Positions 2,020-20,627 of a DNA stretch of 64,000 nucleotides are shown piece by piece. The notes below the pieces were generated by a model that was not told where the DNA came from, did no database searches, and saw only the letters and a list, made by a program, of their open reading frames with translations. The stretch covers positions 42,576 to 106,575 of the forward strand of contig CAYNVO010000003.1 of NCBI GenBank assembly GCA_964400675.1, written 5' to 3'. How positions within the stretch are numbered: position 1 is the stretch's first letter; every line of letters starts with the position of its first letter. Made by a program: the position numbers and the translations under genes. This DNA comes from an uncultured Dehalococcoidales bacterium. Lineage in GTDB: Bacteria; Chloroflexota; Dehalococcoidia; GIF9; UBA5629.

Positions 2020-2150
2020 CGACTTTTTCCTGTTATTAGCAGATATTAGCCTCCTGTCGTTCTGGGGGAGCTAAACGACCGAAGAATAACACAGTTTTGC
2101 TATTACTCTAAATTTCCTCTTCGAGTGAGTAGGGGTCTATTTGCGGTTTC

Positions 2151-7328: not shown

Positions 7329-8399
7329 TCATGTAGTGTGATTATTCAAGTAACACTGAAAGCCATCCAAATGGATGTCAATTTCCTGCTTCAGCATTGG
7401 AAATAGTCGTTTACATTTCATTATGATGGCTCTTCGCTTGATGTCTTCATTTTTTTTACGGCCGTAACAGTCAACAACCTGCAATTTGGTGTGCATCCCC
7501 AGTGAACGGGAAAATAAATTCACCACCTTGCGATCATATTCTGGAAACGAATAACCGATTACTGTGACTATGTTCGCTGTTTTCAATTCCTTCTCTGCTG
7601 AAGACCAAAGAGGCTGAATCATCTTGGGGTATGGTTCATACGGAATAATTATGAAAGGTTGGACAGATTCGCCACAATTTTCAGAACACCTCTTATTATC
7701 GAAAAAATTCTTGAACATGAAAGGATAATACAGATGTAGATGATTACAGGAAGGACAAATCCCCCAATCGATAGACCCGTTAAGTTTGATAAGTTTTATG
7801 GGGTTGTTTTGTGCATAGAATTTTTTACGCTTATCGTCAATCCAATCAAATTTAAGCAAATAATCAAAGTAGACATTTGCATCAAAGTCTTCGTGTAAAA
7901 GAACGTCGAAATTGAAAGAAAGTATTGCAACTTGGCCTGGGTGATTGCTCTTCAAAACTCTGTCTATGAATCTCTTGTATAGAAGGTTTTCATGGCCAAT
8001 GCTGGACTCTGCTAAGTGCTCAAAAATTAACCTTCTAACGAGTTCTACCCCCTTGATATCTCCATTTTGTTGTAACATCATCAGGATTTCATCAACGTAA
8101 CGCCTTTTGTTCCGTAGCCTTTTATTCAGTATGCCACGTGTATCGAAAACCATATCGCCTCTCTCATCCCATTCTTTAAGAAGAAATTCGTATTCTGGAT
8201 AAATTGATGCAGCTAATTTAAGGAATTCACGATAATTGGAGAATCTTTCATTCTCCTCTTGAAGATCTGGACTCCCATTGTCATTATATGGAAGAAGTCG
8301 CCCACAATCCAACGGATAGTTCCAGACTAAGTCCCTTCCTAGTGGGGTATTGGCAGATGCTGCAGATGCTCCGGCCCCAAAAACATATACATGTTTCAT
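7329..8399 (-). CDS. SIR2-like (sirtuin / SIR2_2 DHS-like NAD-binding) domain protein.
   Basis: N-terminal VYVFGAGASAASANTPLGRDL resembles the sirtuin GAGIS..G.P.FR loop. SFNFDVLLHE resembles the (T)TNxDxLxE motif. IKLIKLNGSIDW resembles the SIR2_2 'KLHGSxxW' motif but has Asn where the catalytic His is expected. Cx2C...Cx2C Zn-ribbon (CPSC...CSENC). VIGYSF near the C-terminus. Confidence 0.55.
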   Translation of the reverse strand: MKHVYVFGAGASAASANTPLGRDLVWNYPLDCGRLLPYNDNGSPDLQEENERFSNYREFLKLAASIYPEYEFLLKEWDERGDMVFDTRGILNKRLRNKRRYVDEILMMLQQNGDIKGVELVRRLIFEHLAESSIGHENLLYKRFIDRVLKSNHPGQVAILSFNFDVLLHEDFDANVYFDYLLKFDWIDDKRKKFYAQNNPIKLIKLNGSIDWGICPSCNHLHLYYPFMFKNFFDNKRCSENCGESVQPFIIIPYEPYPKMIQPLWSSAEKELKTANIVTVIGYSFPEYDRKVVNLFSRSLGMHTKLQVVDCYGRKKNEDIKRRAIIMKCKRLFPMLKQEIDIHLDGFQCYLNNHTT

Positions 8400-8630: not shown

Positions 8631-9947
8631 TCAATGATAGCTGGCCAACTTAGAATCCAATGTTCTTTTTATACGTGTCTCTACAAATTCTTTCGTAAGC
8701 ATTTCATCGTAGCGAAAGTAGACCATGGTAACAGCGTTTTCAGAGCAAAGGCTTGCTTTCAATTTGTCACGTTCCTGTGTTTGTTGAAAACCATCCTCGC
8801 CACCAAAAAATGGGATAGGGTCATAATGTTGGCGTCCCTGATATTCAATTGCCAACCGGAGTTCAGGTACAAAGATGTCTAGTCGTTGTCTACCTAACCA
8901 TTCTGGACTTGCTTGATGGACAATTTCATTCTTGGGAAAAATGTCCTTCACCATATTCAGCAGTTCCCTTTCAGATACCCAGCCCTCGCCAATGTGCGGA
9001 ATGCCCAGTAGGTCACGTATTTCATTTTCGGCTTCATGCTCGTCGATATTTTTCTCGATGGCTATTCGTTTAATGTAAGGGCCATAGTGAACCTTCACAT
9101 TACTACCATACATCGGGTGGCAATAGAAAAGTTCAGAGGGAATATCACGGCAAAGATGGCAAATACCGCTTCGGAACTTAGATTTCTGATATGAAGCTAT
9201 AAACTTGTGAGCCCAACCGCTTTCTGCATAAGGATTTTTCTCCTCAACTGCTTTCAAATAGTGCTTCTCCAAGGCTGTTCTGAAACATTCGCAGAAATAA
9301 GACTTGCCACAAACCTTACATATGAACCTGATAATCCGGTCATCTATATATGCCGCCAGGTAATCAGGGTGACATTGACACGACGGAACAAGGTCATCGC
9401 CGATAGAAGTAAGAACTTCAACAGGAAGTCCTATATGTCCCCAATACCCCATGCGAATTATGTAACGGGAAACCGTTTTTAGATGCTTGCTCTTAACCTC
9501 GAGTGGTTTCGGGCAAATCAAATTAACGGGCTTCTCTAAGTGAATTACAGGAGAATCGTTATGCCTAACTATAATCGTGAACTCAAACCATCCCAATTCA
9601 ACCACCGATTGCCTGGGTAAATCCTTTAGGAACCAGGGAAGATGAATTATTGAAGGTTGAGGTGGATACCTGTATCTCGATGGCAGATGTGAATCCGGCG
9701 ACCCTATTAGCATATATTCGCGACTTAGAGACAAGCCTTTGGCAAACCGCGAAGGGCCAGGGTTGAAGCCTATTTTGAAACGAAGTATCTCTCCAGAAGC
9801 GACAAAATTCCTAAGTTGCTTGTCAAATTGCTCAACAACAAGTTGAATAATGAGTTCGGGTAAACTCCGCATTGGTGAACTTAGAATCTTGTCCTTCAAC
9901 CCACATCGAAACAGGTCAAAATCTATGTCCAGCCGGAGAGTAAACAC
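8631..9947 (-). CDS. Cys-rich (zinc-finger-like) protein with a C-terminal DUF559/Vsr-like endonuclease domain. N-terminal ~170 aa are unassigned.
   Basis: C-terminal RLDIFVPELRLAIEYQGRQH...QTQERDKLKASLCSENAVTMVYFRYDE fits the DUF559 pattern 'D..P..L.IE.DG.QH....RD..L...G..V.R'. Central Cys clusters CQCHPD, CKVCGKSYFCEC, CHLC. 231-bp gap to the SIR2-like gene on the same strand. Confidence 0.45.
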   Translation of the reverse strand: MFTLRLDIDFDLFRCGLKDKILSSPMRSLPELIIQLVVEQFDKQLRNFVASGEILRFKIGFNPGPSRFAKGLSLSREYMLIGSPDSHLPSRYRYPPQPSIIHLPWFLKDLPRQSVVELGWFEFTIIVRHNDSPVIHLEKPVNLICPKPLEVKSKHLKTVSRYIIRMGYWGHIGLPVEVLTSIGDDLVPSCQCHPDYLAAYIDDRIIRFICKVCGKSYFCECFRTALEKHYLKAVEEKNPYAESGWAHKFIASYQKSKFRSGICHLCRDIPSELFYCHPMYGSNVKVHYGPYIKRIAIEKNIDEHEAENEIRDLLGIPHIGEGWVSERELLNMVKDIFPKNEIVHQASPEWLGRQRLDIFVPELRLAIEYQGRQHYDPIPFFGGEDGFQQTQERDKLKASLCSENAVTMVYFRYDEMLTKEFVETRIKRTLDSKLASYH

Positions 9948-10109: not shown

Positions 10110-10652
10110 CTAAATCTGTCCTTTTACCTGGACCGGCAGGCAGGCGACCATGAGATAAACTTCGGTGGCGTGGCTGGCGAGTAGCTGGTTGGCTTTGCCC
10201 AGCAGGTCGCGGTAGATGCGGCCGAGCTTAGTTTCAGGTACCAGTCCCATGCCGACCTCGTTGGAAACGATGACGAAGCTGGCATCGAGCCTGTCCATGA
10301 CGGCGATAAGCTGGTTTATTTCAGAAAGCACCCTTTTTTCAGCTTCCGGGTAGTCAGGCTCGTCATGTAGCAGGTTGGAGATGAGCAGGGTGAGGCAGTC
10401 TATGATTACCAACCCGGCATCGCCGATTCCTTTCTCTATTCCTCTGCCGATGCCTGTTGATAGCTCCAGAGTGTGCCAGTTTTGGGGACGGTCTTTTTTG
10501 TGTTCGGCAATGCGAGCCTGCATTTCTTCATCGAGCGCCTCGCCGGTGGCGACGAAGAGGACTTTGTTGCTGAGCTCTTTAGCCAGTTGCTGGGCATAAT
10601 GGCTTTTGCCGCTGCGGGCGCCGCCGAGTAGAAGGATGATTTGTTTAGCCAT
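10110..10652 (-). CDS. cobU: Adenosylcobinamide kinase / adenosylcobinamide-phosphate guanylyltransferase.
   Basis: P-loop GGARSGKS and the VSNEVGMG...NQ CobU family motifs. 180 aa. Confidence 0.85.
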   Translation of the reverse strand: MAKQIILLLGGARSGKSHYAQQLAKELSNKVLFVATGEALDEEMQARIAEHKKDRPQNWHTLELSTGIGRGIEKGIGDAGLVIIDCLTLLISNLLHDEPDYPEAEKRVLSEINQLIAVMDRLDASFVIVSNEVGMGLVPETKLGRIYRDLLGKANQLLASHATEVYLMVACLPVQVKGQI

Positions 10653-10682
10653 TGTTGTGCTCCGAAATAGCGTTCATTTGTT

Positions 10683-11489
10683 TTACTGTGGTTGAGATTC
10701 TTCGCTGCGCTCAGAATGACAGGACGGGAAGATCTCAGAATGACAGGGCAAGAAGTGCTCAGAGTGATGGAGATTTGGATTCTTCGGTCGCTTTGCTCTC
10801 TCAGAATGACAGGAGGGGTTGCCAAGGCTGTACTCCTGTATATCTAATGTCCAGTGGTTGTCCCTGGATATGGGAACAGATTTACCTATTTTTACGGGCT
10901 TCTTGAACGCCGGTCCGTCATATACAAAAGTGTGGAACTCTCCGGCTTCGCCGCAGACGTCGATTTTTGATTTCGCCGCCAGCGCTTTAAGCTCGGAAGC
11001 CAGTTTGCCATCCACCTGCCTGCCCAGCCATTCCTTGCCGAAGAACTCGGTTTTTACGCTGACAACAATGGCTTTGAATCCAGCATCGATGAAGTCGGTC
11101 AGAAGACGGGCGCTGGCCATCCCCCACAGGGGCAGTATTGCCTTCACTCCTGATTCGCCACAGACCCGGTCTATCCAGTCCTTGTGTTCCTGCAGATATA
11201 TATCGCCGGTTATCAAGCCAGTTATGCCTTTGAGCTTAAGCTCGGCTAATGCTTCTTTGAACCCGGCTTCGTAGGTCTCCCAGGTGACTTTTTGCTGAAG
11301 TATGGGCAGAGCCATAGCCTGTGCCTGTAGAGCTATGAGTTTGCGGTCCAAGCCGTGAGACATAGCTCTGGTTGAGTCCGTGTTTATAAAGTTGAGCAGA
11401 TGGCTGACCTTTAAGCCCTGGGAAATCGCTTTCCAGCAGGCAAAGCAACTGTCCTTGCCACCGCTCCATGAAGCTGCATATTCAGTCAT
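10683..11489 (-). CDS. PP-loop ATPase of the MJ0570/Dph6 (ATP_bind_4, diphthine-ammonia-ligase-like) family. C-terminal ~40 aa are read through the repeat array.
   Basis: SWSGGKDS PP-loop at the N-terminus. CGEAGEFHTFVYDGP matches the Dph6-family 'GEgGEyHT.V.DgP' block. The C-terminal tail (CHSE repeats) is translated from the tandem repeat, so the real stop may differ. Confidence 0.6.
   Translation of the reverse strand: MTEYAASWSGGKDSCFACWKAISQGLKVSHLLNFINTDSTRAMSHGLDRKLIALQAQAMALPILQQKVTWETYEAGFKEALAELKLKGITGLITGDIYLQEHKDWIDRVCGESGVKAILPLWGMASARLLTDFIDAGFKAIVVSVKTEFFGKEWLGRQVDGKLASELKALAAKSKIDVCGEAGEFHTFVYDGPAFKKPVKIGKSVPISRDNHWTLDIQEYSLGNPSCHSERAKRPKNPNLHHSEHFLPCHSEIFPSCHSERSEESQPQ
10693..10816. 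repeat. Degenerate tandem array of about four copies of the CCTGTCATTCTGAG-containing unit (minus-strand reading), related to the element at 50.1 kb.
   Basis: Minus strand reads CCTGTCATTCTGAGAGAGCAAAGCGACCGAAGAATCCAAATCTC / CCATCACTCTGAGCACTTCTTG / CCCTGTCATTCTGAGATCTTCCCGT / CCTGTCATTCTGAGCGCAGCGAAGAATCTCA. It overlaps the 3' end of ORF 10683..11489. Confidence 0.6.
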
Positions 11490-12217
11490 TGAAACCTCCC
11501 AATCAAGATGAGTAGTAGAAGCACCAGAACCTCGGCTATCTCGTTGATGGCTCCGTAGTTATCGCCGGTAAGCCCGCCCAGACGGGAACGGAAGTAGCTG
11601 GCTATGCCGAATGCAACAAGCCACAGGGCTGCCATGAGCACCAGACCCCACAGCTTCAGCAGGGCTACGGCGACAATCAAAGCTATGACGGTGGCTATGG
11701 TCAGTCTCTGCCAGGTGGCACCCCGTTTGAAGGCAAGTCCCATGCCGGAGTGTTTGGCATAGGGGAAGGTGAAGATGATGGAGACCATCACCCAGCGGCT
11801 CAAAGTGGGCATGAGCAGCAGGGCTGGCAATATCGGCGCTGCGGAGAGGGAGACATATTTGAGCAGCAGCAGGAGAATGGCGCCGACGATGCCGAAGGCG
11901 CCGACTTTGCTGTCCGACATTATGTCCATCCGTTCCTTTTTGGACTTGCCGGCGATAACGCCGTCGCAGGTGTCGATGAAGCCATCGAGATGGTGGGCGC
12001 CGGTCAGTATGACCAGAGTTATGATGAGCAGTGCGTTTACCACGGAAGAGGGCAGGATAAAACTCAAGCCATAGTAAAGGCCAAGCAGGACGACGCCGAG
12101 AATCAAGCCGACCAGCGGGAAATAGGTCAGTGATTGGCCCGAGGTCTTAGCTGTGGCCTTGTGCCGTAGTGGTGTGGGGAATATGGTCAAGAATTGGATT
12201 GCTTCCCAGAAACCCAA
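11486..12217 (-). CDS. cobS: Adenosylcobinamide-GDP ribazoletransferase (cobalamin synthase), membrane protein.
   Basis: Polytopic membrane protein of 243 aa with CobS-like N-terminus (MGFWEAIQFLTIFP) and HLDGFIDTCDG. Confidence 0.85.
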   Translation of the reverse strand: MGFWEAIQFLTIFPTPLRHKATAKTSGQSLTYFPLVGLILGVVLLGLYYGLSFILPSSVVNALLIITLVILTGAHHLDGFIDTCDGVIAGKSKKERMDIMSDSKVGAFGIVGAILLLLLKYVSLSAAPILPALLLMPTLSRWVMVSIIFTFPYAKHSGMGLAFKRGATWQRLTIATVIALIVAVALLKLWGLVLMAALWLVAFGIASYFRSRLGGLTGDNYGAINEIAEVLVLLLLILIGRFQ

Positions 12218-12228
12218 ATTTATTCTCC

Positions 12229-13302
12229 TTATTGTGGTTCGAGCGGTCTGGCTTCGGAGACGCCGGCCTGAGCAAATGTAGCCATCTGGCTCAGAGTTCT
12301 GACGGAGGCTTCAGCCAGTGAGATGCCCAGGACAGCGCCGGTGCCTTCGCCAAGTCGCATATTAAGATTTAGCAATGGTTTCAGTCCCAGAAACTGTAGC
12401 AGCAGCTCATGTCCTGCCTCTGCCGAGAGATGGGCGGAGATGAGGTAATCTCTGGCTTGTGGTGATAAGCCGATGGCGATGAGGGCGGCAGTCCCGGAGA
12501 TGAAGCCGTCGATGACCACAGGGATTCTGTAGGCAGCGCCGGCAAGCATAACTCCAACCAGCCCGCCGATTTCGAAGCCGCCGACCTTGGACAAGATGTC
12601 TATCGGGTCCTTGGGATTAGGCTTGTTAATCGATAGGGCTCTTTCTATGACCTTGATTTTATGGGCGAGCTGTTTATCGCCGATGCCGGTGCCCCGGCCG
12701 GTGATTTTCCTGGGCTGTTTGCCGCTGATGGCGGCGAAGATGGCGCTGCTGGCGGTGGTATTGCCGATGCCCATATCTCCAGCGCCGATGATATCGACTC
12801 TCTTAGCCATCTCGGCTTCGACCGTCTGGATGCCGGCTTCTATGGCGTCAATGGCTTGCTGGCGTGTCATCGCCGGTCCCTGTGTTATGTTCTGGGTGCC
12901 GAAGTCTATCATTTTACATAATAACCCGGGCAGCGGTTGGAAGCCGCCTTTGACTCCCATATCTACTATTATAACCCGGGCGCCTATCTGTTCGGCCATG
13001 ACATTTATGGCGGCACCGCCTTTGAGGAAGTTGAGGACCATCTGGCGGGTTACTTCCTGAGGATAGAGGCTGACCGTTTCGGCAGCGACGCCGTGGTCAG
13101 CAGCCATGATGATTATGGACTTATGTTCCAATTTAGGTGTGGCTTCGCCCTTGATTCCGGCAATTTGAATCGACAGCTCTTCCAACCTGCCCAGGCTGCC
13201 GTGCGGCTTGGTCAGACTGTTCTGGCGGCTCTGCGCAGCTGCCATCGCTGAGCTATCCAGCGGCTTGATTTCTTTAAGTATTGTGTCTAAGGAAGTGGTC
13301 AT
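12229..13302 (-). CDS. cobT: Nicotinate-nucleotide--dimethylbenzimidazole phosphoribosyltransferase.
   Basis: 357 aa. CobT-like blocks (GAGDMGIGNTT, IDGFISGTAAL, HLSAEAGH). Confidence 0.85.
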   Translation of the reverse strand: MTTSLDTILKEIKPLDSSAMAAAQSRQNSLTKPHGSLGRLEELSIQIAGIKGEATPKLEHKSIIIMAADHGVAAETVSLYPQEVTRQMVLNFLKGGAAINVMAEQIGARVIIVDMGVKGGFQPLPGLLCKMIDFGTQNITQGPAMTRQQAIDAIEAGIQTVEAEMAKRVDIIGAGDMGIGNTTASSAIFAAISGKQPRKITGRGTGIGDKQLAHKIKVIERALSINKPNPKDPIDILSKVGGFEIGGLVGVMLAGAAYRIPVVIDGFISGTAALIAIGLSPQARDYLISAHLSAEAGHELLLQFLGLKPLLNLNMRLGEGTGAVLGISLAEASVRTLSQMATFAQAGVSEARPLEPQ

Positions 13303-13321
13303 TGTTTAAGCTCCTTGCCTG

Positions 13322-13846
13322 TTAATATTCGATGCCGCGCCTGGCATCTGTACCCTCGGTGAGGGGATGTTTAATCATGAGCATTTCGGTGACTAAATCA
13401 GCCCGCTGTATTATCTCCGGTGGCGCCTTCCGACCGGTCAGAACCAGTTCAACTGAGGCAGGCTTTGAATCAAGTATGTCCAGCACCTGCTTGACGGTTA
13501 TCAAGCCCTGGCTGATGGCGATAAAAATCTCGTCGAGTATGACCATGTCATACTTCCCGCTGAGTATCTCTTGCTCGGCGTAGGCTAATGTTTGATGAGC
13601 CTCCTGGCTTGATTGCTCCTTGGATTTTTTAAAGCTATCGCCGACGCTTATCTGGACTATCTCGAAGGGGTTGTACTGCTTTACGAAGAAATGCTCGCCG
13701 CAGGGTAGCCCTTTTAAGAACTGGATGAAGGTCACCTTCATACCCTGTCCCGCGGCTCTCATCGCCAGACCTAGAGCGGCAGTGGTCTTGCCTTTACCGT
13801 CGCCGGTGTAAACATGGACAAGACCTTTGGAGTTTTTTTCAACCAT
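13322..13846 (-). CDS. cobO: Cob(I)yrinic acid a,c-diamide / corrinoid adenosyltransferase (BtuR/CobO/CobP family).
   Basis: VHVYTGDGKGKTTAALGLAMRA and DEI..AI motifs, typical of PF02572. 174 aa. Confidence 0.8.
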   Translation of the reverse strand: MVEKNSKGLVHVYTGDGKGKTTAALGLAMRAAGQGMKVTFIQFLKGLPCGEHFFVKQYNPFEIVQISVGDSFKKSKEQSSQEAHQTLAYAEQEILSGKYDMVILDEIFIAISQGLITVKQVLDILDSKPASVELVLTGRKAPPEIIQRADLVTEMLMIKHPLTEGTDARRGIEY

Positions 13847-15356
13847 GATTCCTCCCCAGAGCGATTTTATAGACCTGTGACATATCGAGGTTGCTCCTGA
13901 TTATATCGGCTAGTTTATCATATATTTCCTGTTTGTTTATCGATACTGTTGGGGCTTCGGGCAATCTCCTGAGCTGTCGCAGCCTGCTCAGAAGTCGGCG
14001 TGTGAATTCGCCATTGTGAAATAAGCCGTGGATGTAGGTGCCAAATATAAGTCCGTTGCTGCCGACAATGCCATCGAAGTAATCGACTTTACCCTGTGGC
14101 GTTTCGAAGACCTGGAGTATCGGCTGGCAGCGCTGGCTTCTGGTCTGCCCCATATGAATCTCGTAGCCAGTGACCTCCATGCCTTTAAGCCCTTTCAGCA
14201 AGCCTTTGTCGGCATAAACACGGGCTTTAACCTGTGTGGTCGTTTTGTCATTGTGAAAGATGGTTGTGCTATTGAGCAAGCCAAGCCCATTGATGCTGTC
14301 GTGCCTGGATTCGACTTTATCAGGGTCATGTATGCTTTTACCCAGCATCTGGTAGCCGCCGCAAATACCTATTACCGGGATGCCTGACTGTGCCAGGTGG
14401 ACAATAGCCTGTGCCAGCCCTTGTTGTTGCAATTTAATTAAATCGGCGATGGTGCTTTTGGTTCCGGGCAGAATGAGCAGGTCTGGACTGCCCAACTCAG
14501 GTACAGTGCTCACATAGCGGACGGCACAGCCCTGCTCTTCAAGCGGGTCGAAATCGTCGTAGTTGGAGATATGGGGCAGGCGTATAACAGCCACATCGAC
14601 AGTGCCGTTAGCCGAGTCTGTTTGTCTTTCGTCGAGATAGACCGAGTCCTCTTGAGCGATACCCATGTCGCGAAAATAGGGAATGACTCCCAGAACAGGT
14701 TTGCCGGTGCGTTTCTCCAGGATATCCAGCCCTGGCTTCAGCAGTTGGAGGTCACCGCGAAATTTGTTGATGATGAAGCCTTTGATAAGGTCGCGCTCTT
14801 GGCTGGTCAGCAGTTCCAGCGTGCCGATGATTGAAGCGAAAACGCCGCCGCGGTCAATATCGCCTACCAGCAGAACGGGAGCATTTACCATTCCGGCTAT
14901 TCTCATATTGACTATTTCTCTGTCTTTGAGGTTTATTTCTGCCGGGCTGCCAGCTCCTTCAATAACCACGATATCATAGGTAGACAGTAGATGACCTAGA
15001 GAGTTCTTGATTATCTTCAGCAGGTTGGGGGTATAGCTGTAATATTGACTGGCCTCCATGTTTTTAGCCACTTTCCCTAAAACGATTACCTGTGAGCGGT
15101 TATCGGCTTCGGGTTTAAGCAGCACAGGATTCATATGGACGGAAGGCTCGATGCCGGCTGCCTCAGCCTGTACTGCCTGAGCACGTCCGATTTCACCGCC
15201 TTCCCTGGTAACGAAGGAATTTAAAGCCATGTTCTGTGCTTTGAACGGGGCGACTTTGAGGCCGTCTTGCCGGAAAATTCGGCATAATCCGGCTGTGATT
15301 ACGCTCTTACCTGCAGATGAAGCTGTGCCCTGTATCATCAGGGTTTTAGCCGGCAT
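13839..15356 (-). CDS. cobQ: Cobyric acid synthase.
   Basis: 505 aa. N-terminal MIQGTASSAGKS (CobQ/CbiP ATP-binding domain). C-terminal GATase1-like domain with GICGGYQMLG. Confidence 0.9.
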   Translation of the reverse strand: MPAKTLMIQGTASSAGKSVITAGLCRIFRQDGLKVAPFKAQNMALNSFVTREGGEIGRAQAVQAEAAGIEPSVHMNPVLLKPEADNRSQVIVLGKVAKNMEASQYYSYTPNLLKIIKNSLGHLLSTYDIVVIEGAGSPAEINLKDREIVNMRIAGMVNAPVLLVGDIDRGGVFASIIGTLELLTSQERDLIKGFIINKFRGDLQLLKPGLDILEKRTGKPVLGVIPYFRDMGIAQEDSVYLDERQTDSANGTVDVAVIRLPHISNYDDFDPLEEQGCAVRYVSTVPELGSPDLLILPGTKSTIADLIKLQQQGLAQAIVHLAQSGIPVIGICGGYQMLGKSIHDPDKVESRHDSINGLGLLNSTTIFHNDKTTTQVKARVYADKGLLKGLKGMEVTGYEIHMGQTRSQRCQPILQVFETPQGKVDYFDGIVGSNGLIFGTYIHGLFHNGEFTRRLLSRLRQLRRLPEAPTVSINKQEIYDKLADIIRSNLDMSQVYKIALGRNHG

Positions 15357-16443
15357 GGCTTATGACTCCAATTTCTTTTACAGCCTCGATTAGCTTCTGG
15401 CATTCGGGCAGGGTGCGTGGTGCCAGGCGTATGTACTGGGGCAAACCGAAAGAGGTACAGTCACGAACTAATATGCCTTTCTTTAATATGGCTTGCCTGA
15501 AGGCTGTGGCATTGCCGACTCTGACCAGGAAGAAATTGGTCTGCGATGGTAGCGGCGATAGTCCAATGCCCTCCAGTTCTTTTATCAGGAAATCTTTGGC
15601 TGCACGGATGTTGTTATGACACTCCTCAAGATAATTATCAGCATTTAAGGCAAAGACGCCGGCTTCCTGTGCCGGGGCATTGACGTTCCATGGCGGGCGG
15701 ACACGTTTCAGAACGGAAATGATTGGCTCGGCGGCTATAGCGTAGCCGAGGCGCAGTCCGGCCAGGGCATAGTCCTTGGTCATTGAACGGAGGATAATTA
15801 AATTATTATGGTCTATTAAATCCAGAGATGTCCAGGCGTTCTGGGTGAAGGCGATGTAGGCTTCATCGAGTATGACCAGGCTGTCCTGCGTACTTGACAT
15901 AATCTGTATAAATTTTCCTTTGGACATGTATTGCCCGGTAGGGTTATTGGGGTTACACAGAAAAACGGCTTTAGGTCGGTGCTTCTGGAGTAAGTTTGCA
16001 AATTCCTTTATATCCGGCTGGAAATTCGGCTCCTTGAGGACTGGCTGTTTCAATACGCAGGCATTGGCGAGGTGGCAGGCAGTTTCGTATTCACCATAGG
16101 TCGGTTGCGGAATAAGGACTAAGTCATCGGAGTCCAGGTAGGCAGTAGTTACAAGCCTGATTAGCTCGGTGGAACCGCTGCCTATGATTAGCCTGTCTTG
16201 AGATATATTTAGCTTTTGAGCCAGCAACTGCTTTAATTCACCGGCTTCGGTGTCAGGATAGCATGCTATCGATGTATCGGCTAAAGCTTCTTTTATGCCG
16301 GGTGGTGGCCCGAATGGATTACAGCTAACGCTGAAGTCGAGCACGGTCTCTGATGAGATACCAAGCCTGGCTAACTCTTCATGGTCTATGCCGCCGTGAA
16401 CGCAGGGTGAGATCTTATTTATAGCTGGTCTAGGTAACAACAA
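15346..16443 (-). CDS. cobD: L-threonine-O-3-phosphate decarboxylase (class I/II aminotransferase fold).
   Basis: 365 aa PLP-aminotransferase-like protein (SMTKDYALAGLRLGY lysine region) inside the cobalamin operon. Assignment to CobD over HisC rests on context. Confidence 0.7.
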   Translation of the reverse strand: MLLPRPAINKISPCVHGGIDHEELARLGISSETVLDFSVSCNPFGPPPGIKEALADTSIACYPDTEAGELKQLLAQKLNISQDRLIIGSGSTELIRLVTTAYLDSDDLVLIPQPTYGEYETACHLANACVLKQPVLKEPNFQPDIKEFANLLQKHRPKAVFLCNPNNPTGQYMSKGKFIQIMSSTQDSLVILDEAYIAFTQNAWTSLDLIDHNNLIILRSMTKDYALAGLRLGYAIAAEPIISVLKRVRPPWNVNAPAQEAGVFALNADNYLEECHNNIRAAKDFLIKELEGIGLSPLPSQTNFFLVRVGNATAFRQAILKKGILVRDCTSFGLPQYIRLAPRTLPECQKLIEAVKEIGVISHAG

Positions 16444-17359
16444 AATATATCACCTCGGCAAAGATAGATATCAGGCACCAGATAATGGCTGTTACAAAAA
16501 TGATTTGTCGAGAAGCGTTAATCGTGTCAAGTGATAGCGGGTACTGGTTATCACCAAGTCGGTAATTGTCGATTTTTTCCAGTTGTATTCCCAGGGCACC
16601 GGCGATGGCGCTCATCGTCCAGCCGGCGTTGGGACTTTCTGTTTTTTTGTGGTCGCGAATCATGATGTGCCAGGCTTGCGAGGCATTTTTTCGGCATATA
16701 AGAGAAGCCACCACTATTATCAGGGAGGCAATCCGTGCCGGGATGAAATTAACGATATCGTCCAGTCTAGCGGCAAACTTGCCCAGATATTCCCATTGCC
16801 CATGGTACCCCACCATAGAATCGAAGGTGTTTATTACACGGTAACCTATGGCTCCGGGCACGCCGAAGAGGAAAAAGTAAAATAGAGGGGCTACAAAACT
16901 ATCGCATATATTTTCGGCTGCTGATTCTACTGTGGCTGATATAACCTGCTTCTTGTCGAGTTTGGTAGTGTCACGGCTGACCAGAGATTGCAAGCGCAGG
17001 CGTGCCTGGTCCAAATTATTTTTAGCTATAAGCTTTTTAACTGTGTCAATGGCTTGCCTGAGTCCGCGTAAGGAAAAACTGAATTTCAGCAAGAACCCGG
17101 CGATAATGACGTAAACTATGAGATTAAACTCACTCAGGAGGGATAGCAGAAAGTAAATGGCGGTGACAGTCAGCCCAAGCGTTATTAAAACCATGCCGAT
17201 GCCGTAGGTAAGCTGCCGGGCCCTGTCTTTTTTTGGAGCCAGCTTTGTCTCCAGAGAAATTAGTTTGCCCATCCAGGCTATGGGATGCCAGGTGTTTGAT
17301 GGCTCACCAAGGATAAGGTCAAGGGCAAGAGCTATGAGCAGGATTATTACTATTTCCAT
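16430..17359 (-). CDS. cbiB: Adenosylcobinamide-phosphate synthase (CbiB/CobD membrane protein).
   Basis: 309 aa polytopic protein. N-terminal LDLILGEPSNTWHPIAWMGKLI is the CbiB signature. Confidence 0.85.
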   Translation of the reverse strand: MEIVIILLIALALDLILGEPSNTWHPIAWMGKLISLETKLAPKKDRARQLTYGIGMVLITLGLTVTAIYFLLSLLSEFNLIVYVIIAGFLLKFSFSLRGLRQAIDTVKKLIAKNNLDQARLRLQSLVSRDTTKLDKKQVISATVESAAENICDSFVAPLFYFFLFGVPGAIGYRVINTFDSMVGYHGQWEYLGKFAARLDDIVNFIPARIASLIIVVASLICRKNASQAWHIMIRDHKKTESPNAGWTMSAIAGALGIQLEKIDNYRLGDNQYPLSLDTINASRQIIFVTAIIWCLISIFAEVIYFVVT

Positions 17360-17373
17360 GATTTTTCAAGCAC

Positions 17374-18162
17374 TTATTTATCTTTGTCAGACACGATAAG
17401 GGTGGCGGGCAAATCATTAATCGGGTGGGGATAGACGTAGACTTCGGCTCCGTAAACCTCCTTGATAGTTTTTGCATTTATCACCGATTCAGGAGTTCCG
17501 TGGCAGTAAACTCTTCCATCACTAAGCATTATCAGGCGGTCGCAATACTGAGATGCCAGGTTCAGGTCATGAAGCGTCACCACAACAATTAGCCCTTGCT
17601 CTCGACATAACTGGCGGGCTAAATCCAGGGTTTCTATCTGATAATTAATATCTAAATTGGCGGTGGGTTCATCCATAAGTATTATTTTTGGTTCCTGAGC
17701 TAAGGCGCGGGCAATGGTCAGGCGTTGTCTTTCGCCTCCTGACAGCTCGCCCACCCTGCGTTCAGCATAAGCAAGCGTTTGGGTCGCTTTCATGGTCTTT
17801 TGTACTATAGCCAGGTCATGTTCTCCTTCATAGCGCAGTAGCCCTAGATGCGGAGTGCGCCCCATAAGCACCACCTCTAGGGCAGTGAATAGTTCAGGTA
17901 AGGTTGGATTTTGAGGGACAACAGCCACCAGTTGAGCTAAATCCCGGTGACTCATGTCGGCTATGTTCTTGCCATCGAGGAAGATGTGTCCTGAGCTCGG
18001 CTTAATCAGTTGGGTTATTCCTTTGATTACCGTTGATTTGCCGGAACCGTTAGGACCTATGATGCCCAGCATTTCTCCAGGCTTAGCTTCAAGGCTGATG
18101 TTATGGAGCACTGTTTGCTTGTTATAGCCCAGGCTGACGTTATCCAAGCGCAGTTTGAACAT
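17374..18162 (-). CDS. btuD: ABC transporter ATP-binding protein (iron-siderophore/cobalamin FepC/BtuD type).
   Basis: Walker A GPNGSGKST, LSGGERQR signature, Walker B ILMDEP. Operon context with btuC/btuF-like genes. Confidence 0.8.
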   Translation of the reverse strand: MFKLRLDNVSLGYNKQTVLHNISLEAKPGEMLGIIGPNGSGKSTVIKGITQLIKPSSGHIFLDGKNIADMSHRDLAQLVAVVPQNPTLPELFTALEVVLMGRTPHLGLLRYEGEHDLAIVQKTMKATQTLAYAERRVGELSGGERQRLTIARALAQEPKIILMDEPTANLDINYQIETLDLARQLCREQGLIVVVTLHDLNLASQYCDRLIMLSDGRVYCHGTPESVINAKTIKEVYGAEVYVYPHPINDLPATLIVSDKDK

Positions 18163-19242
18163 TTAGAATATTGCCCTCTTTTTTTGTCGCAGCAGATAAA
18201 GAAAGAAAGGAGCACCTATAAAGGCGGTTATTACGCCTACTGGTATCTCTGTAGGCGCCAGCATGGTTCGGGCGGCGGTATCAGCTAGAATTAAAAAAAT
18301 AGCTCCGGCGAAGGTGGCTAAAGGCAGGAGGAAACGGTGGTCTGGACCCCAGATAAGCCGAACAGCATGTGGGACGATGATGCCGACAAAGCCGATGATG
18401 CCACAGAAACAGACCGCAGCGGCGGTTATCAAGGTTGCAGCCCCGAGCAAAGTCAGCTTGACCTGTTCCACGTTGATGCCCAGCTGTTGGGCTTGTTCTT
18501 CGTCGAGCTGCATTACGTTTAAAGGTCGGGCATGAAGCCAGATGACTATTGTGCCGATGAGTATATAAGGTGCCACCATGCCTACCTGCCACCAACTGGT
18601 CAGGGAGAATGTGCCCAGCAGCCAGGAGATTATGCCGTGCAATTTGTCTCCCGATGCAATCATCAGGTAAGAAGTGATTGCAGCCAGGAAAGCGCCCAGG
18701 GCTACACCGGCTAGGATAAGGGTTGTCATAGGCAGGGTTTTACCGACTCTGGCTATGTAATAAACTACAGCTACGGCTGTAATAGCACCAGTGAATGCCA
18801 GTAATGGAATGCTGGCAGCTTGCCAGGCTATGGGTAGCATGAAACCGATGACGGCTCCTAATGCTGCACCCTGGGCGACGCCAATGAGGTATGGGTCAGC
18901 CAGTGGATTGCGGAAAAGTCCCTGGTATGTGGTACCGGCCACGGCTAATGCGGCACCGACTAGTCCGGCTAGAAGCAACCGGGGCAGGCGTATGTCAAAA
19001 ATGATTGTTTCTATATTGCTTGGCCAGGTTGCCTGGATATGGACGAACGGTAGTTTGTCTAATAGAACGTCGCATACCTTATCGAAGGGAATGTCAGTGC
19101 TGCCTACGGCTAAAGTCGCTATAAGTACTATTCCTAGAAGTATGACCAGTCCGACTATGGCATAAATTCGGCTACGCCAGTGGATTGGGTAAATGGCTGC
19201 AGTTTCTGATATGCTCGAATTCTTAAACAATTCTAATGCCAT
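18163..19242 (-). CDS. btuC: ABC transporter permease, FecCD family.
   Basis: 359 aa, about 9-10 TM helices, FecCD-type sequence. Follows the ATPase. Confidence 0.8.
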   Translation of the reverse strand: MALELFKNSSISETAAIYPIHWRSRIYAIVGLVILLGIVLIATLAVGSTDIPFDKVCDVLLDKLPFVHIQATWPSNIETIIFDIRLPRLLLAGLVGAALAVAGTTYQGLFRNPLADPYLIGVAQGAALGAVIGFMLPIAWQAASIPLLAFTGAITAVAVVYYIARVGKTLPMTTLILAGVALGAFLAAITSYLMIASGDKLHGIISWLLGTFSLTSWWQVGMVAPYILIGTIVIWLHARPLNVMQLDEEQAQQLGINVEQVKLTLLGAATLITAAAVCFCGIIGFVGIIVPHAVRLIWGPDHRFLLPLATFAGAIFLILADTAARTMLAPTEIPVGVITAFIGAPFFLYLLRQKKRAIF

Positions 19243-19296
19243 TCTTGTTCAGCCTTTACACCTCTAGCACTGATGTACATGCTTGTTTCTTTTCGG

Positions 19297-20262
19297 CTAT
19301 TTGAAGAGTTCAGGGTGAATGAAGCAGGCCATTTGTTCCAGGGCTTCTACTATTCTGGGACCTGGGCGGTGTATCAGGTCGCCATCGATTTTATATATCC
19401 TGTCATTTAGCAGCGCCTGTGTATTTTTCAACCTGGTCTCAGTCTGTACATATTGCCAGGGCAGGTCTTCTCCAGTCCCCATGCCAACGGAGGCTACTAT
19501 TACCTGTGGGTCTCTGTAAATGACCGTCTCCAGGTCGATTGTCTTGTCGCCAGAGATATCAGAGGCGATGTTTTGTCCACCGGCACTGCGGATTACATCA
19601 TCAGCCAAAGTTCCTGTGCCGGCGGTCATCAGTGGGTCATGCCAGGTGACATAAAATACTCTCGGTTTTTGTTTTGAGGATAAGGTTTCTGTTTTGTCAG
19701 TTATAACTTCAATCCTTGACCTTAAGCTGCTGACCATCTCCGTAGCCTGTTTATTTTGTCCGGTGATTTTACCTACCAATGTTATGCTGTCCAGCACTTC
19801 AAGCAGGGAAGTTGGTGTTAGAGCCACAACTGTCAGTCCAAGTTCTTCCAGGGCAGGTATGACTGTTTTGCTGTGAATATTGGTTGCCAGCACCAGGTCC
19901 GGCTCAAGTGAGACAACCTTTTCTATGTCGACAGTGCTGAACCCCCCCACTTTAAGTTTAGTTGTAGCCGCCTGAGGATAATTACAATACTCAGTAACTC
20001 CGACCACTTTATCGCCCAGGCCGAGAGCGAACAAGATTTCGGTATTGCTCGGTGATAGAGAGATTATTCGTTGGGGTGTTTTTTCGATTGCTACGCTTCT
20101 GCCAAGGCCGTCAACTATATTGCCCGGCGTAGATTGTGCAGCACAACTGGGGCAAAGAAGAAATGCTAGTGCTAACAGGATAAGGAAGTATTTTGGGCTA
20201 TGTTGGCTCATTATTTTTCTCCTTTGCGTCAATCGCAAATTAAAATCCCCATGCTCCAACAA
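19297..20262 (-). CDS. btuF: ABC transporter periplasmic/extracytoplasmic corrinoid-binding protein (class III SBP).
   Basis: Lipoprotein-like N-terminus (LLCPSCAA). RIISLSPSNTEILFALGLGDKVVGV is typical of BtuF/FhuD-type binding proteins. First gene downstream of the riboswitch. Confidence 0.75.
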   Translation of the reverse strand: MLEHGDFNLRLTQRRKIMSQHSPKYFLILLALAFLLCPSCAAQSTPGNIVDGLGRSVAIEKTPQRIISLSPSNTEILFALGLGDKVVGVTEYCNYPQAATTKLKVGGFSTVDIEKVVSLEPDLVLATNIHSKTVIPALEELGLTVVALTPTSLLEVLDSITLVGKITGQNKQATEMVSSLRSRIEVITDKTETLSSKQKPRVFYVTWHDPLMTAGTGTLADDVIRSAGGQNIASDISGDKTIDLETVIYRDPQVIVASVGMGTGEDLPWQYVQTETRLKNTQALLNDRIYKIDGDLIHRPGPRIVEALEQMACFIHPELFK

Positions 20263-20294
20263 GCAAGGGGATTAATTCTAAATAATAAATCCCA

Positions 20295-20430
20295 CCCCCT
20301 TACTCCGCGGAGGTAGCCATACCTAGTAGGGTCGATGTTCTGACTATTACAGCAGGCGGGACTGTGCCGGGATTTCACCGGCTTGCATTCCAATTAAGCC
20401 CAAGATTGCCCCTGGGCACCCTACCGCAGC
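20295..20430 (-). promoter_or_regulatory. Cobalamin (B12) riboswitch aptamer in the leader of the btuF-cobU operon.
   Basis: Minus-strand sequence ...GGTAGGGTGCCCAGGGGCAATCTTGGGCTTAATTGGAATGCAAGCCGGTGAAATCCCGGCACAGTCCCGCCTGCTGTAATAG...CCCTACTAGG contains the B12-box-like core GCCGGTGAAATCCCGGC-CAGTCCCGCC-CTGTAA and a closing P1 (GGTAGGG...CCCTACT). ORF 20347..20598(-) inside it is judged spurious. Confidence 0.7.
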
Positions 20431-20627
20431 TATTAAGTTTGTTAACAGAATACCTGGAAATCGGTATAAAGTCAATAGAGCCAATATATCGAATGAGCCG
20501 GGCATACTACAAATCACCTTTCCTGATTGCCGGCTAGTTGCTTTCTGCTGATTTAGAATAAATCTTGATTGATGTATTACTGGCAACCTACTTGACAAAG
20601 ATCCGTCGTTCCTTTATTTTATGAGTA

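What the first reader, a model, noticed from the sequence alone, without database searches (positions are those of the whole stretch)
10683..11489. A Dph6/MJ0570-family PP-loop ATPase is embedded between cobS and cobU in the cobalamin operon
The SGGKDS PP-loop and the GEAGEFHTFVYDGP block identify an ATP_bind_4 (diphthine-ammonia-ligase-like) enzyme. These catalyse ATP-dependent amidation or adenylation of carboxylates. It is translationally coupled: it overlaps the cobS stop by 4 nt. It sits inside an otherwise canonical nucleotide-loop assembly and salvage operon under a B12 riboswitch. That placement suggests an undescribed corrinoid-related step, for example re-amidation of a corrinoid carboxylate during salvage or remodelling. 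This family is not part of the textbook cobalamin pathway.
Basis: partly seen in the sequence, partly recalled or inferred. Interest (0 to 1): 0.55.

Follow-up and report, generated by a model that had tools for sequence, protein, structure and literature searches.

The report
Known B12-salvage PP-loop ATPase (DUF71-B12)
The gene is real and does sit inside a vitamin-B12 salvage operon, but this B12-linked branch of the diphthamide-synthase family was already described in 2012 (the "DUF71-B12" group), and its chemistry is still untested.

Summary
ORF 10683-11489 (minus strand) is a PF01902/DUF71 PP-loop ATP pyrophosphatase with SGGKDS and GEAGEFHT motifs. Its start overlaps the cobS stop (ATGA). 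It is the tenth gene of an 11-gene operon headed by a cobalamin riboswitch: btuFCD-cbiB-cobD-cobQ-cobO-cobT-cobS-DUF71-cobU.

It is not Dph6. The catalytic Glu188 of Dph6 is replaced by His, and it scores below the Dph6 equivalog cut-off.

The cob/btu linkage recurs. It is found in 59 of 84 usable loci, across Dehalococcoidia, Omnitrophota, a Planctomycetales MAG, Bathyarchaeia and Thermococci, in several different gene orders.

This association is not new. It is the "DUF71-B12" subgroup of de Crecy-Lagard et al. 2012 (Biol Direct 7:32). That paper reported the His-for-Glu signature, clustering with btuFCD/cbiB and anticorrelation with CbiZ. I found no later experimental test.

Residues 224-268 are read-through into a ~170-nt repeat insertion and are predicted to be disordered.

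One addition: DUF71-B12 often sits beside CobQ or a glutaminase-less AsnB-like ligase, never both in one locus. This mildly favours an amide-forming role over the CbiZ-like hydrolase role proposed in 2012.

Novelty: already known. Interest: low to moderate.

The parts
20313..20438 (-). Cobalamin riboswitch aptamer heading the operon
   Evidence: Rfam RF00174, 38.5 bits (gathering score 31.5), E=3.3e-6. It ends 51 nt upstream of the btuF start. A weak sigma-70-like site lies at 20475-20447.
19297..20262 (-). btuF-like periplasmic corrinoid-binding protein
   Evidence: PF01497 Peripla_BP_2, E=1.3e-37.
18163..19242 (-). btuC-like ABC permease
   Evidence: PF01032 FecCD, E=4.2e-98.
17374..18162 (-). 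btuD-like ABC ATPase
   Evidence: PF00005 ABC_tran, E=1.4e-34.
16430..17359 (-). cbiB (adenosylcobinamide-phosphate synthase)
   Evidence: PF03186 CobD_Cbib, E=2.5e-90.
15346..16443 (-). cobD-like class I/II aminotransferase-fold enzyme (threonine-phosphate decarboxylase type)
   Evidence: PF00155, E=1.6e-62. The cobD role is inferred from its position between cbiB and cobQ.
13839..15356 (-). cobQ/cbiP (cobyric acid synthase, glutamine amidotransferase)
   Evidence: PF07685 GATase_3, E=9.3e-58, plus PF01656 CbiA domain.
13322..13846 (-). cobO/cobA corrinoid adenosyltransferase
   Evidence: PF02572, E=4.3e-61.
12229..13302 (-). cobT (NaMN:DMB phosphoribosyltransferase)
   Evidence: PF02277, E=1.2e-136. 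TIGR03160 scores 448 bits, above its cut-off.
11486..12217 (-). cobS (cobalamin-5'-phosphate synthase)
   Evidence: PF02654, E=2.3e-54. TIGR00317 scores 133.5 bits against a cut-off of 110.
10821..11489 (-). DUF71-B12-type PP-loop ATP pyrophosphatase, catalytic core (residues 1-223)
   Evidence: PF01902, E=1.4e-55. The model matches PH1257 and PF0828 with TM 0.89-0.93. It has SGGKDS and GEAGEFH186T. Orthologues are 219-223 aa.
10653..10820 (-). About 170-nt repeat insertion between the DUF71 core and cobU. Its part from 10683 to 10820 is read in frame as a 45-aa tail.
   Evidence: Three copies of CTCAGAATGACAGG... lie at 10710, 10734 and 10800. The insertion is absent from L001, L010, L015 and L035, where the DUF71 stop overlaps the cobU start. 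Tail length varies among homologues. The tail has pLDDT <50. The region has no significant RNA fold (z=0.55).
10110..10652 (-). cobU (adenosylcobinamide kinase / guanylyltransferase)
   Evidence: PF02283, E=1.8e-56. NF004469 scores 192 bits against a cut-off of 161.

Best explanation
The gene encodes a member of the already described DUF71-B12 subgroup of the PF01902/COG2102 PP-loop ATP pyrophosphatases. It is co-transcribed, under a cobalamin riboswitch, with corrinoid import (btuFCD), adenosylation (cobO), side-chain amidation (cobQ), aminopropanol-arm attachment (cobD, cbiB) and nucleotide-loop assembly (cobU, cobT, cobS). It is not a diphthine-ammonia ligase. The mechanism I consider most likely is inferred, not shown. 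Like Dph6 and other PP-loop enzymes, it would bind ATP and adenylate a carboxylate, releasing PPi. The substrate would be a side-chain carboxylate of an imported, incompletely amidated or deamidated corrinoid. The acyl-AMP would then be resolved with ammonia (or an amine) to form an amide. The enzyme would thus work alongside CobQ to bring salvaged corrinoids to the fully amidated state needed by CbiB, CobU and CobS. The confidence of 0.4 given for this entry refers to this amide-forming mechanism. My confidence that it is a DUF71-B12 member acting in corrinoid salvage is about 0.85.
For: Family and fold:
- PF01902 match at E=1.4e-55.
- The predicted structure superposes on PH1257 and PF0828-ATP with TM 0.89-0.93 and rmsd 1.7-2.4 A.

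ATP-site residues listed in the 2012 paper as shared by both subfamilies are present:
- S9 G10 G11 K12 D13 correspond to PF0828 S12-D16.
- H45 corresponds to H48, T187 to T189, and G180/G183/E184/F185 are kept.

Not Dph6:
- PF0828 Glu188 is His186 here.
- TIGR03679 scores 157.6 bits, below its cut-off of 197.3.
- All 120 close homologues, and all 119 of the best 150 50%-identity representatives in which the motif could be found, carry His. None carries Glu.

B12 context:
- A riboswitch heads an 11-gene operon.
- The same gene order occurs in 15 Dehalococcoidia loci.
- Different orders occur in Omnitrophota and a Planctomycetales MAG (cobQ/cbiB-DUF71-btuFCD), in Bathyarchaeia and in Thermococci.
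- 59 of 84 usable loci have a strong cob/btu hit within 6 kb.
- Cobalamin riboswitches head 6 of 7 further operons tested.
- Published precedent: PMC3541065.

For amide formation specifically:
- The family's one proven reaction is ATP-dependent carboxylate amidation.
- Among loci with cob context or an AsnB-like hit, cobQ is present in 24. A glutaminase-less AsnB-like ligase lies immediately upstream of DUF71 in 12, and further off in 5 more. The two never occur in the same locus.
- The AsnB-like gene takes cobQ's slot in otherwise parallel operons (L086 versus L073).
- Five loci of at least 15 kb hold DUF71 plus cobQ or the AsnB-like gene but no cbiB. A cobyric-acid-forming hydrolase would have no follow-up enzyme there.
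Against: There is no biochemical or genetic evidence for any activity of this subgroup. I found none in the searchable literature, and a 2016 review still lists it as 'function unknown, B12 salvage'. In 25 of 56 cob-context loci with enough upstream sequence, DUF71 has neither cobQ nor an adjacent AsnB-like gene, so pairing with an amidating enzyme is not obligatory. The 2012 phyletic pattern (anticorrelation with bacterial CbiZ) points to a CbiZ-like role. My locus census agrees in finding no CbiZ among families matched by two or more of 256 unassigned neighbouring ORFs. The loci are not phylogenetically independent, and absence of cbiB from a 15-20 kb locus does not show absence from the genome. 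Whether deamidated or under-amidated corrinoids are a significant natural substrate is assumed, not shown.
Confidence: 0.4

Rival explanations
1. Functional replacement of bacterial CbiZ (the 2012 proposal). The enzyme would cleave the amide between the f-propionate and the aminopropanol arm of cobinamide or an unwanted cobamide (for example pseudo-B12). This would yield cobyric acid, which CbiB/CobD, CobU, CobT and CobS rebuild with the preferred lower ligand. ATP might be used to activate the amide carbonyl.
For: The paper reports strict anticorrelation of DUF71-B12 and CbiZ in bacterial genomes, and clustering with btuFCD (75/102) and cbiB (18/102). The window operon has cbiB and cobD, which need a source of cobyric acid, and nothing in the operon matches CbiZ. 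No CbiZ family appears among families matched by two or more of 256 unassigned ORFs near DUF71 genes. Organohalide-respiring Dehalococcoides depend on remodelling cobamides; this is my own background knowledge, not tested here.
Against: The proposed reaction runs opposite to every characterised PP-loop enzyme. A reviewer of the 2012 paper raised this, and the authors agreed that the hypothesis rests only on phyletic patterns. The whole ATP-binding apparatus is conserved, which a plain hydrolase would not need. Several operons hold DUF71 without cbiB within 15-20 kb (L022, L028, L049, L063, L101). The paper notes that many archaea carry both CbiZ and DUF71-B12.
Confidence: 0.2
2. ATP-dependent ligase that joins cobyric acid to aminopropanol or aminopropanol-phosphate. 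It would act as a soluble partner that activates the f-carboxylate for membrane-bound CbiB, or as an alternative to CbiB.
For: DUF71 lies directly next to cbiB or cobD in several architectures (L021, L024, L058, L069, L111). The paper reports cbiB adjacency in 18/102 genomes. PP-loop enzymes of the AsnB class can use amine nucleophiles other than ammonia; for example, the lasso-peptide and macrolactam cyclase models turned up as weak hits to the AsnB-like neighbour.
Against: CbiB works without DUF71 in cobamide producers that lack the family (established pathway knowledge; the paper's table shows DUF71 in few bacterial genomes). Many DUF71 operons lack cbiB and cobD nearby. The most frequent identified neighbours are cobS, cobU and the btu transporter genes, not cbiB.
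Confidence: 0.12
3. A B12-regulated function that does not act on the corrin at all. Examples are amidation or adenylation of a lower-ligand precursor or another small molecule, or ATP-dependent handling or chaperoning of the imported cofactor.
For: In many loci the gene is inserted among the transporter genes (btuF-DUF71-btuC, or btuF-DUF71-cobO-btuC). In Thermococci it lies between cobT and a PgpA/CobZ-like phosphatase gene. His-type homologues also occur with no cob context (L031-L033; L013 and L020 beside an aminotransferase gene and an AsnC-type regulator gene). The His signature alone therefore does not prove a corrinoid substrate.
Against: No conserved partner suggests a particular non-corrin substrate. 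The only constant across architectures is corrinoid uptake and assembly.
Confidence: 0.18
4. A genuine diphthine-ammonia ligase (Dph6), as public annotation names it, sitting in the operon by chance.
For: NCBI and JGI name the close homologues 'diphthine--ammonia ligase'. The best NCBIfam hit is Dph6_archaeal.
Against: The score is below the equivalog cut-off (157.6 against 197.3). The catalytic Glu188 is replaced by His. The closest relatives are Dehalococcoidia bacteria; the paper states that diphthamide is absent from Bacteria. The conserved operon linkage argues against chance.
Confidence: 0.02

Closest known systems
DUF71-B12 subgroup of DUF71/COG2102 (de Crecy-Lagard, Forouhar, Brochier-Armanet, Tong, Hunt 2012, Biol Direct 7:32; PMC3541065)
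   Same: It shares the Pfam family, the retained PP-loop and ATP-contact residues, and His in place of Dph6 Glu188 (published motif ENGE[F/Y]H; here EAGEFH). It clusters physically with btuFCD, cbiB and the other salvage genes. It occurs in Chloroflexi; the paper reports 5 of 16 Chloroflexi genomes and five copies in Dehalococcoides sp. CBDB1.
   Different: Nothing essential differs. The second motif residue is Ala rather than the consensus Asn, and this position varies across the family. This copy carries a 45-aa disordered tail from a repeat insertion. The position between cobS and cobU, and the presence of cobQ in the operon, are not emphasised in the parts of the paper I read.
Dph6, diphthine-ammonia ligase EC 6.3.1.14 (structures PF0828 3RJZ/3RK0/3RK1 and PH1257 2D13)
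   Same: It has the same fold (TM about 0.9), about 30% sequence identity, and the same PP-loop and ATP site. It is likely to share the first half-reaction, carboxylate adenylation.
   Different: Glu188 is replaced by His. According to the paper, the EF-2-contacting residues differ in the B12 subgroup. The protein scores below the equivalog cut-off. The closest relatives are bacteria, which per the paper lack diphthamide. The gene lies in a corrinoid operon.
CbiZ, adenosylcobinamide / pseudo-B12 amidohydrolase (PF01955)
   Same: It is a possible functional analogue in salvage and remodelling, based on the published phyletic complementarity in bacteria.
   Different: There is no sequence or fold relationship: the only Pfam hit is PF01902. 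CbiZ is an ATP-independent hydrolase, whereas this protein keeps a complete ATP pyrophosphatase site.
CbiA/CobB and CbiP/CobQ, the canonical corrinoid side-chain amidotransferases
   Same: They carry out ATP-dependent amidation of corrin carboxylates, which is the chemistry proposed here. CobQ is encoded in the same operon and lies directly next to DUF71 in nine loci.
   Different: They belong to an unrelated fold (MinD/ParA-type P-loop plus a GATase_3 domain). By established biochemistry they activate the carboxylate by phosphorylation (ADP-forming), not adenylation, and they are glutamine-dependent. DUF71 has no glutaminase domain.

Membership tests
PF01902 / DUF71 / COG2102 (MJ0570-like PP-loop ATP pyrophosphatases) | Profile match above Pfam's gathering score over the full domain | tested here: met
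   188.7 bits against a cut-off of 23.2, covering residues 5-221 of the protein and positions 4-218 of the 219-position profile.
PF01902 / DUF71 / COG2102 (MJ0570-like PP-loop ATP pyrophosphatases) | N-terminal PP-loop SGGKDS and C-terminal G-E-x-G-E-[FY]-x-[TS] motif | tested here: met
   SGGKDS at residues 9-14 and GEAGEFHT at 180-187. G11, K12, G180, E181, G183, E184 and H186 are invariant in a 38-sequence alignment of 34-47% identity.
PF01902 / DUF71 / COG2102 (MJ0570-like PP-loop ATP pyrophosphatases) | Fold of PH1257 / PF0828 (HUP domain plus the family-specific C-terminal domain) | tested here: met
   The AF2 model has mean pLDDT 80.7 overall, with the core mostly above 85. Foldseek gives 2d13_A at E=6.7e-21, TMt 0.92, rmsd 1.7 A, and 3rk1_A at TMt 0.89.
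Dph6 (diphthine-ammonia ligase) | Strictly conserved EGGE/DxE motif with Glu188 (PF0828 numbering) | tested here: not met
   The position aligned to E188 is His186.
Dph6 (diphthine-ammonia ligase) | Score above the curated equivalog cut-off of TIGR03679 Dph6_archaeal | tested here: not met
   157.6 bits against a cut-off of 197.3.
Dph6 (diphthine-ammonia ligase) | Host makes diphthamide (EF-2 with the target His; dph2 and dph5 present) | not testable with these tools
   Only a 64-kb window is available. The closest relatives are Dehalococcoidia bacteria, and the paper states that the modification is absent from Bacteria.
DUF71-B12 subgroup | E-N-G-E-[F/Y]-H signature (His replaces Glu188) | tested here: met
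   The window has EAGEFH. Asn is the consensus at the second position, but that position varies. His is found in every close homologue and representative where the motif was located, 239 sequences in all.
DUF71-B12 subgroup | Physical clustering with B12 transport and salvage genes | tested here: met
   The gene lies in a riboswitch-headed operon with btuFCD, cbiB, cobD, cobQ, cobO, cobT, cobS and cobU. Linkage recurs in 59 of 84 usable loci.
DUF71-B12 subgroup | Placement in the B12 clade of the family tree (cluster 2 of the 2012 paper) | not tested
   No tree was built with the paper's reference sequences. Indirect support: none of the best 150 50%-identity representatives carries the Dph6 Glu.
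DUF71-B12 subgroup | Absence of CbiZ from the same bacterial genome | tested here: inconclusive
   The operon genes match other families, and CbiZ is not among families matched by two or more of 256 unassigned ORFs near DUF71 genes in related loci. The rest of this window and the rest of the genome were not examined.
CbiZ (PF01955) | Sequence membership | tested here: not met
   PF01902 is the only Pfam family matched at E<=0.01.

The most novel reading that the evidence does not exclude
DUF71-B12 is a corrinoid side-chain amide ligase, paired with either CobQ or a glutaminase-less AsnB-like PP-loop ligase. Together they would form a previously unrecognised 'amidation/repair' module of cobamide salvage. 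Non-producers could then use under-amidated or hydrolytically deamidated corrinoids from the environment. In the window operon, DUF71 would fill the one slot missing between cobyrinic acid and cobalamin, the CbiA-type a,c-amidation.
Probability: 0.3. Interest if true: 0.6.

Novelty: already known. Interest (0 to 1): 0.3.

Why it matters
The gene is widely mis-annotated as 'diphthine--ammonia ligase' in bacterial MAGs. Recognising it as DUF71-B12 corrects that. The family's function has been an open, testable question for more than a decade. It appears in the salvage operons of many cobamide-dependent anaerobes, so its activity bears on which corrinoids such organisms can use. The CobQ / AsnB-like pairing noted here narrows the experiments to a short list of substrates. 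It does not by itself add a new kind of system.

Tried and rejected
1. Dph6 identity was rejected, because of His186 and the sub-threshold equivalog score.
2. I looked for experimental follow-up of the 2012 prediction with seven full-text searches. None turned up. Subscription-only papers are not covered.
3. I asked whether the C-terminal 45 aa is a functional extension. It was rejected: it is an insertion of a repeat, variable among close homologues, absent from most, and predicted to be disordered.
4. I asked whether the insertion forms an RNA structure or a terminator between DUF71 and cobU. There is no significant fold (z=0.55) and no terminator-like site on that strand.
5. I looked for domain fusions that might reveal the substrate. 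Fusions to small Cys-rich domains (PF04071, PF14375), a GNAT domain and a tandem duplication were found. None is decisive.
6. I looked for CbiZ inside DUF71-containing operons with two Pfam censuses. It was not found at a count of two or more. This neither proves nor disproves functional replacement.
7. I looked for a second DUF71 copy in the window and found none.
8. A genome-wide presence/absence test for cbiA, cbiZ and the ring-synthesis genes could not be done. Only +-10 kb around each hit is available, and the collection scans are capped.
Full report
**1. The observation**

The ORF at 10683-11489 on the minus strand exists and encodes 268 aa. It matches Pfam PF01902 (Diphthami_syn_2, formerly ATP_bind_4/DUF71) at E=1.4e-55 over residues 5-221.

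The start ATG (11489-11487) and the cobS stop TGA (11488-11486) share the tetranucleotide ATGA. A GGGAGG ribosome-binding site lies just upstream (sequence).

The flanking genes are cobS (PF02654; TIGR00317 above its cut-off) and cobU (PF02283; NF004469 above its cut-off). A cobalamin riboswitch lies at 20313-20438 on the same strand.

Everything from btuF to cobU runs on the minus strand with no gap larger than 54 nt. The order is btuF, btuC, btuD, cbiB, cobD, cobQ, cobO, cobT, cobS, the PP-loop gene, cobU.

**2. A correction to the gene model**

Only residues 1-223 are the enzyme. Most of the 120 closest homologues are 219-223 aa and end in ...EYSLG. A minority carry tails of varying length built from CHSE(R/G/P)-type units.

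In the window the tail is encoded by three copies of a 24-nt repeat, CTCAGAATGACAGG..., at 10710, 10734 and 10800. That is 3 exact and 4 near matches in the window, against 0.45 expected by chance.

A DNA alignment with four orthologous loci shows what happened. In those loci the DUF71 stop overlaps a TTG start of cobU (GAGTACAGCCTTGGCTAAACAA). The window has about 170 extra nucleotides at exactly this junction.

The tail is predicted to be disordered, with pLDDT <50 for residues 227-266. The inserted RNA has no significant fold, and I found no terminator-like site on that strand. I treat the tail as read-through into a repeat insertion, not as a functional domain.

**3. What the protein is**

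The AlphaFold model of the core is confident. It superposes on the two solved family members, PH1257 (2D13; TMt 0.92, rmsd 1.7 A) and PF0828 (3RK1 with ATP; TMt 0.89). Sequence identity to them is about 30%.

The ATP-contact residues that the 2012 paper lists as common to the whole family are all present:
- S9-D13 correspond to PF0828 S12-D16.
- H45 corresponds to H48.
- G180, G183, E184 and F185 are kept.
- T187 corresponds to T189.

The residue aligned with the Dph6 catalytic Glu188 is His186. The best NCBIfam model, Dph6_archaeal, scores 157.6 bits, below its cut-off of 197.3. The protein is therefore a family member but not a Dph6.

A search of 1.84 billion cluster representatives found 4207 relatives. 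Among the best 150, the motif could be located in 119, and every one has His and none has Glu. The same holds for all 120 close homologues.

**4. Context elsewhere**

I fetched 34 loci from species-representative genomes and 80 from metagenomes. I scanned their ORFs with the window's own cob and btu proteins.

- Fifteen Dehalococcoidia loci (60-87% identity) repeat the window's gene order.
- Omnitrophota loci and one Planctomycetales locus (46-51% identity) use a different order, with cobQ or cbiB before the gene and btuFCD after it.
- A Bathyarchaeia locus has btuFCD, an AsnB-like gene, DUF71, an archaeal-type cobT, cobS and a cobY-like gene.
- A Thermococci locus has cobT, DUF71, a PgpA/CobZ-like phosphatase gene, cobS and a possible cobY-like gene.
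- Many metagenome loci insert the gene among the transporter genes (btuF-DUF71-btuC, or btuF-DUF71-cobO-btuC).

Of 84 loci with at least 3 kb of flank on one side, 59 have a cob or btu gene at E<=1e-30 within 6 kb. Six of seven further operons tested begin with a cobalamin riboswitch.

Exceptions exist. Two Dehalococcoidia paralogues (52-55% identity) lie next to an aminotransferase gene and an AsnC-type regulator gene. More distant His-type homologues in Chryseobacterium, Myxococcota and Phycisphaerae have no cob neighbours.

**5. Prior knowledge**

This is not an undescribed association. De Crecy-Lagard et al. (Biol Direct 2012; PMC3541065) split DUF71/COG2102 into Dph6 and a 'DUF71-B12' subgroup. 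The points below are taken from the paper:
- 75 of 102 members are adjacent to B12 transporter genes and 18 of 102 to cbiB.
- EGGE/DxE188 is replaced by ENGE[F/Y]H188.
- The EF-2-contacting residues differ in the B12 subgroup.
- The subgroup is strictly anticorrelated with CbiZ in bacteria.
- DUF71 occurs in 5 of 16 Chloroflexi genomes.
- Dehalococcoides sp. CBDB1 has five copies.

The authors proposed that the proteins replace bacterial CbiZ (pseudo-B12 amidohydrolase) or provide another route for pseudo-B12 salvage. A reviewer objected that PP-loop ligases are not known to be re-used as amidohydrolases, and the authors agreed that the idea rests on phyletic patterns.

A 2016 review by the same group still lists the subgroup as 'function unknown, B12 salvage'. 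My full-text searches found no experimental follow-up. Public annotation of the close homologues remains 'diphthine--ammonia ligase'.

**6. Mechanism**

What is shown:
- The fold is that of an ATP pyrophosphatase with a complete ATP site.
- A signature residue is changed relative to Dph6.
- The gene is co-transcribed with a corrinoid salvage operon and linked to such operons across phyla.

What is inferred is the substrate and the reaction. Three models fit a salvage role.

(a) Amide formation on a corrinoid carboxylate. This keeps the family's only proven chemistry.

(b) CbiZ-like cleavage, giving cobyric acid. This explains the published anticorrelation and the need of cbiB/cobD for a cobyric acid source.

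(c) Activation of cobyric acid for attachment of the aminopropanol arm.

I added one piece of evidence. I ran a Pfam census of 142 unassigned ORFs within two genes of DUF71. The commonest families were Radical_SAM (12 ORFs) and Asn_synthase (11 ORFs).

The Asn_synthase hits are proteins of about 310-330 aa. They align only to the synthetase half of AsnB (about residues 209-505), lack a glutaminase domain, and score below every curated cut-off.

- Such a gene lies immediately upstream of DUF71, often overlapping it, in 12 loci.
- cobQ is present in 24 loci and directly adjacent to DUF71 in nine.
- No locus has both.
- In otherwise parallel operons the AsnB-like gene occupies cobQ's slot. L086 runs cobU cobT cobS cbiB cobD AsnB-like DUF71 btuF, then btuC, btuD and cobO. 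L073 runs ...cbiB cobD cobQ DUF71 btuFCD.
- Five loci of at least 15 kb have DUF71 plus one of these partners but no cbiB.

This pattern associates DUF71-B12 with amide-forming enzymes and mildly favours model (a).

Read this way, the window operon encodes every step from cobyrinic acid a,c-diamide onwards except the CobC phosphatase. DUF71 is then a candidate for the missing CbiA-type amidation, or for repair of deamidated corrinoids.

The caveats are substantial:
- 25 of 56 informative cob-context loci have neither partner adjacent.
- The loci are not phylogenetically independent.
- Absence from a locus is not absence from a genome.
- CbiZ did not appear among families matched by two or more of 256 unassigned neighbouring ORFs. 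This is what model (b) predicts.

My estimates are 0.4 for (a), 0.2 for (b), 0.12 for (c), 0.18 for another B12-linked role, and about 0.02 for a true Dph6.

**7. Verdict**

The family, the operon context and the corrinoid link are right, and the amidation idea is reasonable. The association is already in the literature under the name DUF71-B12, including for Chloroflexi, so it is not novel.

What remains open is the biochemical activity. The experiments that would settle it are straightforward and are listed under next steps. Interest is low to moderate (0.3). If the amidation/repair module were demonstrated, it would add a new step to cobamide salvage and would deserve about 0.6.

Noticed in passing
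window 10653-10820; homologues P0001, P0002, P0006, P0014, P0053, P0070: A ~170-nt insertion carries three copies of a 24-nt unit (CTCAGAATGACAGG...). It sits exactly at the DUF71/cobU junction and is translated as a CHSE(R/G/P)...SEES tail. Copy number varies among close relatives. The junction sequence looks partly duplicated on both sides (GGAGTACAGCCTTGGC / GGAGCACAACAATGGC), which suggests a small mobile or slippage-prone repeat. Only one weaker match occurs elsewhere in the window (2053-2066).
   Followed up: partly
L014:9019-9978, L040:801-1790, L042:6190-7188, L044:1568-2557, L049:9048-9989, L058:1009-1938, L060:4941-5909, L086:8990-9931, L088:2-772, L099:9045-9989, L101:5875-6807, L111:5342-6346: A glutaminase-less AsnB-like PP-loop ligase (~310-330 aa, PF00733, below all NCBIfam cut-offs) lies immediately upstream of DUF71 inside B12 salvage operons. 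In this sample it is mutually exclusive with cobQ (12 loci against 24, none with both). I did not find it described in the literature I could search.
   Followed up: partly
L027:8604-10001, L025:40-1449, L067:6583-8040, L107:7863-9245; also L015:1503-2240, L021:10640-11371 and others: Two kinds of radical SAM gene recur in these B12 operons. One is a SPASM-domain enzyme matching TIGR04163 'rSAM_cobopep CbpB' above its cut-off (494.7 bits against 375). The other is a small ~245-aa radical SAM protein resembling glycyl-radical activases, sometimes placed between btuF and btuC. The window operon has neither.
   Followed up: partly
P0187, P0229, P0260, P0125, P0159 (50%-identity representatives): Several domain fusions of His-type DUF71 proteins were seen: with the small Cys-rich domain PF04071, with Cys_rich_CWC (PF14375), with a GNAT acetyltransferase, as a tandem duplication, and within a 2455-aa multidomain protein (DUF4116 repeats, kinase-like and HAD-like regions).
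   Followed up: no
L013:6461-7159 and L020:1858-2559: Dehalococcoidia paralogues (52-55% identity, His-type motif) are not in a cob operon. They follow a class I/II aminotransferase gene and an AsnC-type regulator gene. This suggests a second function for the family within the same class of organisms, in line with the five copies reported for Dehalococcoides CBDB1.
   Followed up: no
window 10110-20438: The operon has no cobC/His_Phos_1 alpha-ribazole-phosphate phosphatase gene, whereas 17 neighbouring ORFs in related loci match that family. The operon genes I scanned include no CbiA homologue although CobQ is there.
   Followed up: no
window 7329-8399 and 8631-9947 (minus strand): Two sizeable ORFs (356 and 438 aa) directly downstream of the operon have no Pfam match at E<=1e-4.
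   Followed up: no
all homologues: The precomputed annotation lists a second Pfam accession, PF28410.1, on every close homologue. The local Pfam copy returned only PF01902 for the window protein, so I could not tell what PF28410 describes.
   Followed up: no
L018 (whole locus): The orthologous operon in this MAG is broken into many short frames (btuF x3, cobQ x4, DUF71 x3). This looks like indel errors of a long-read assembly rather than pseudogenisation.
   Followed up: no
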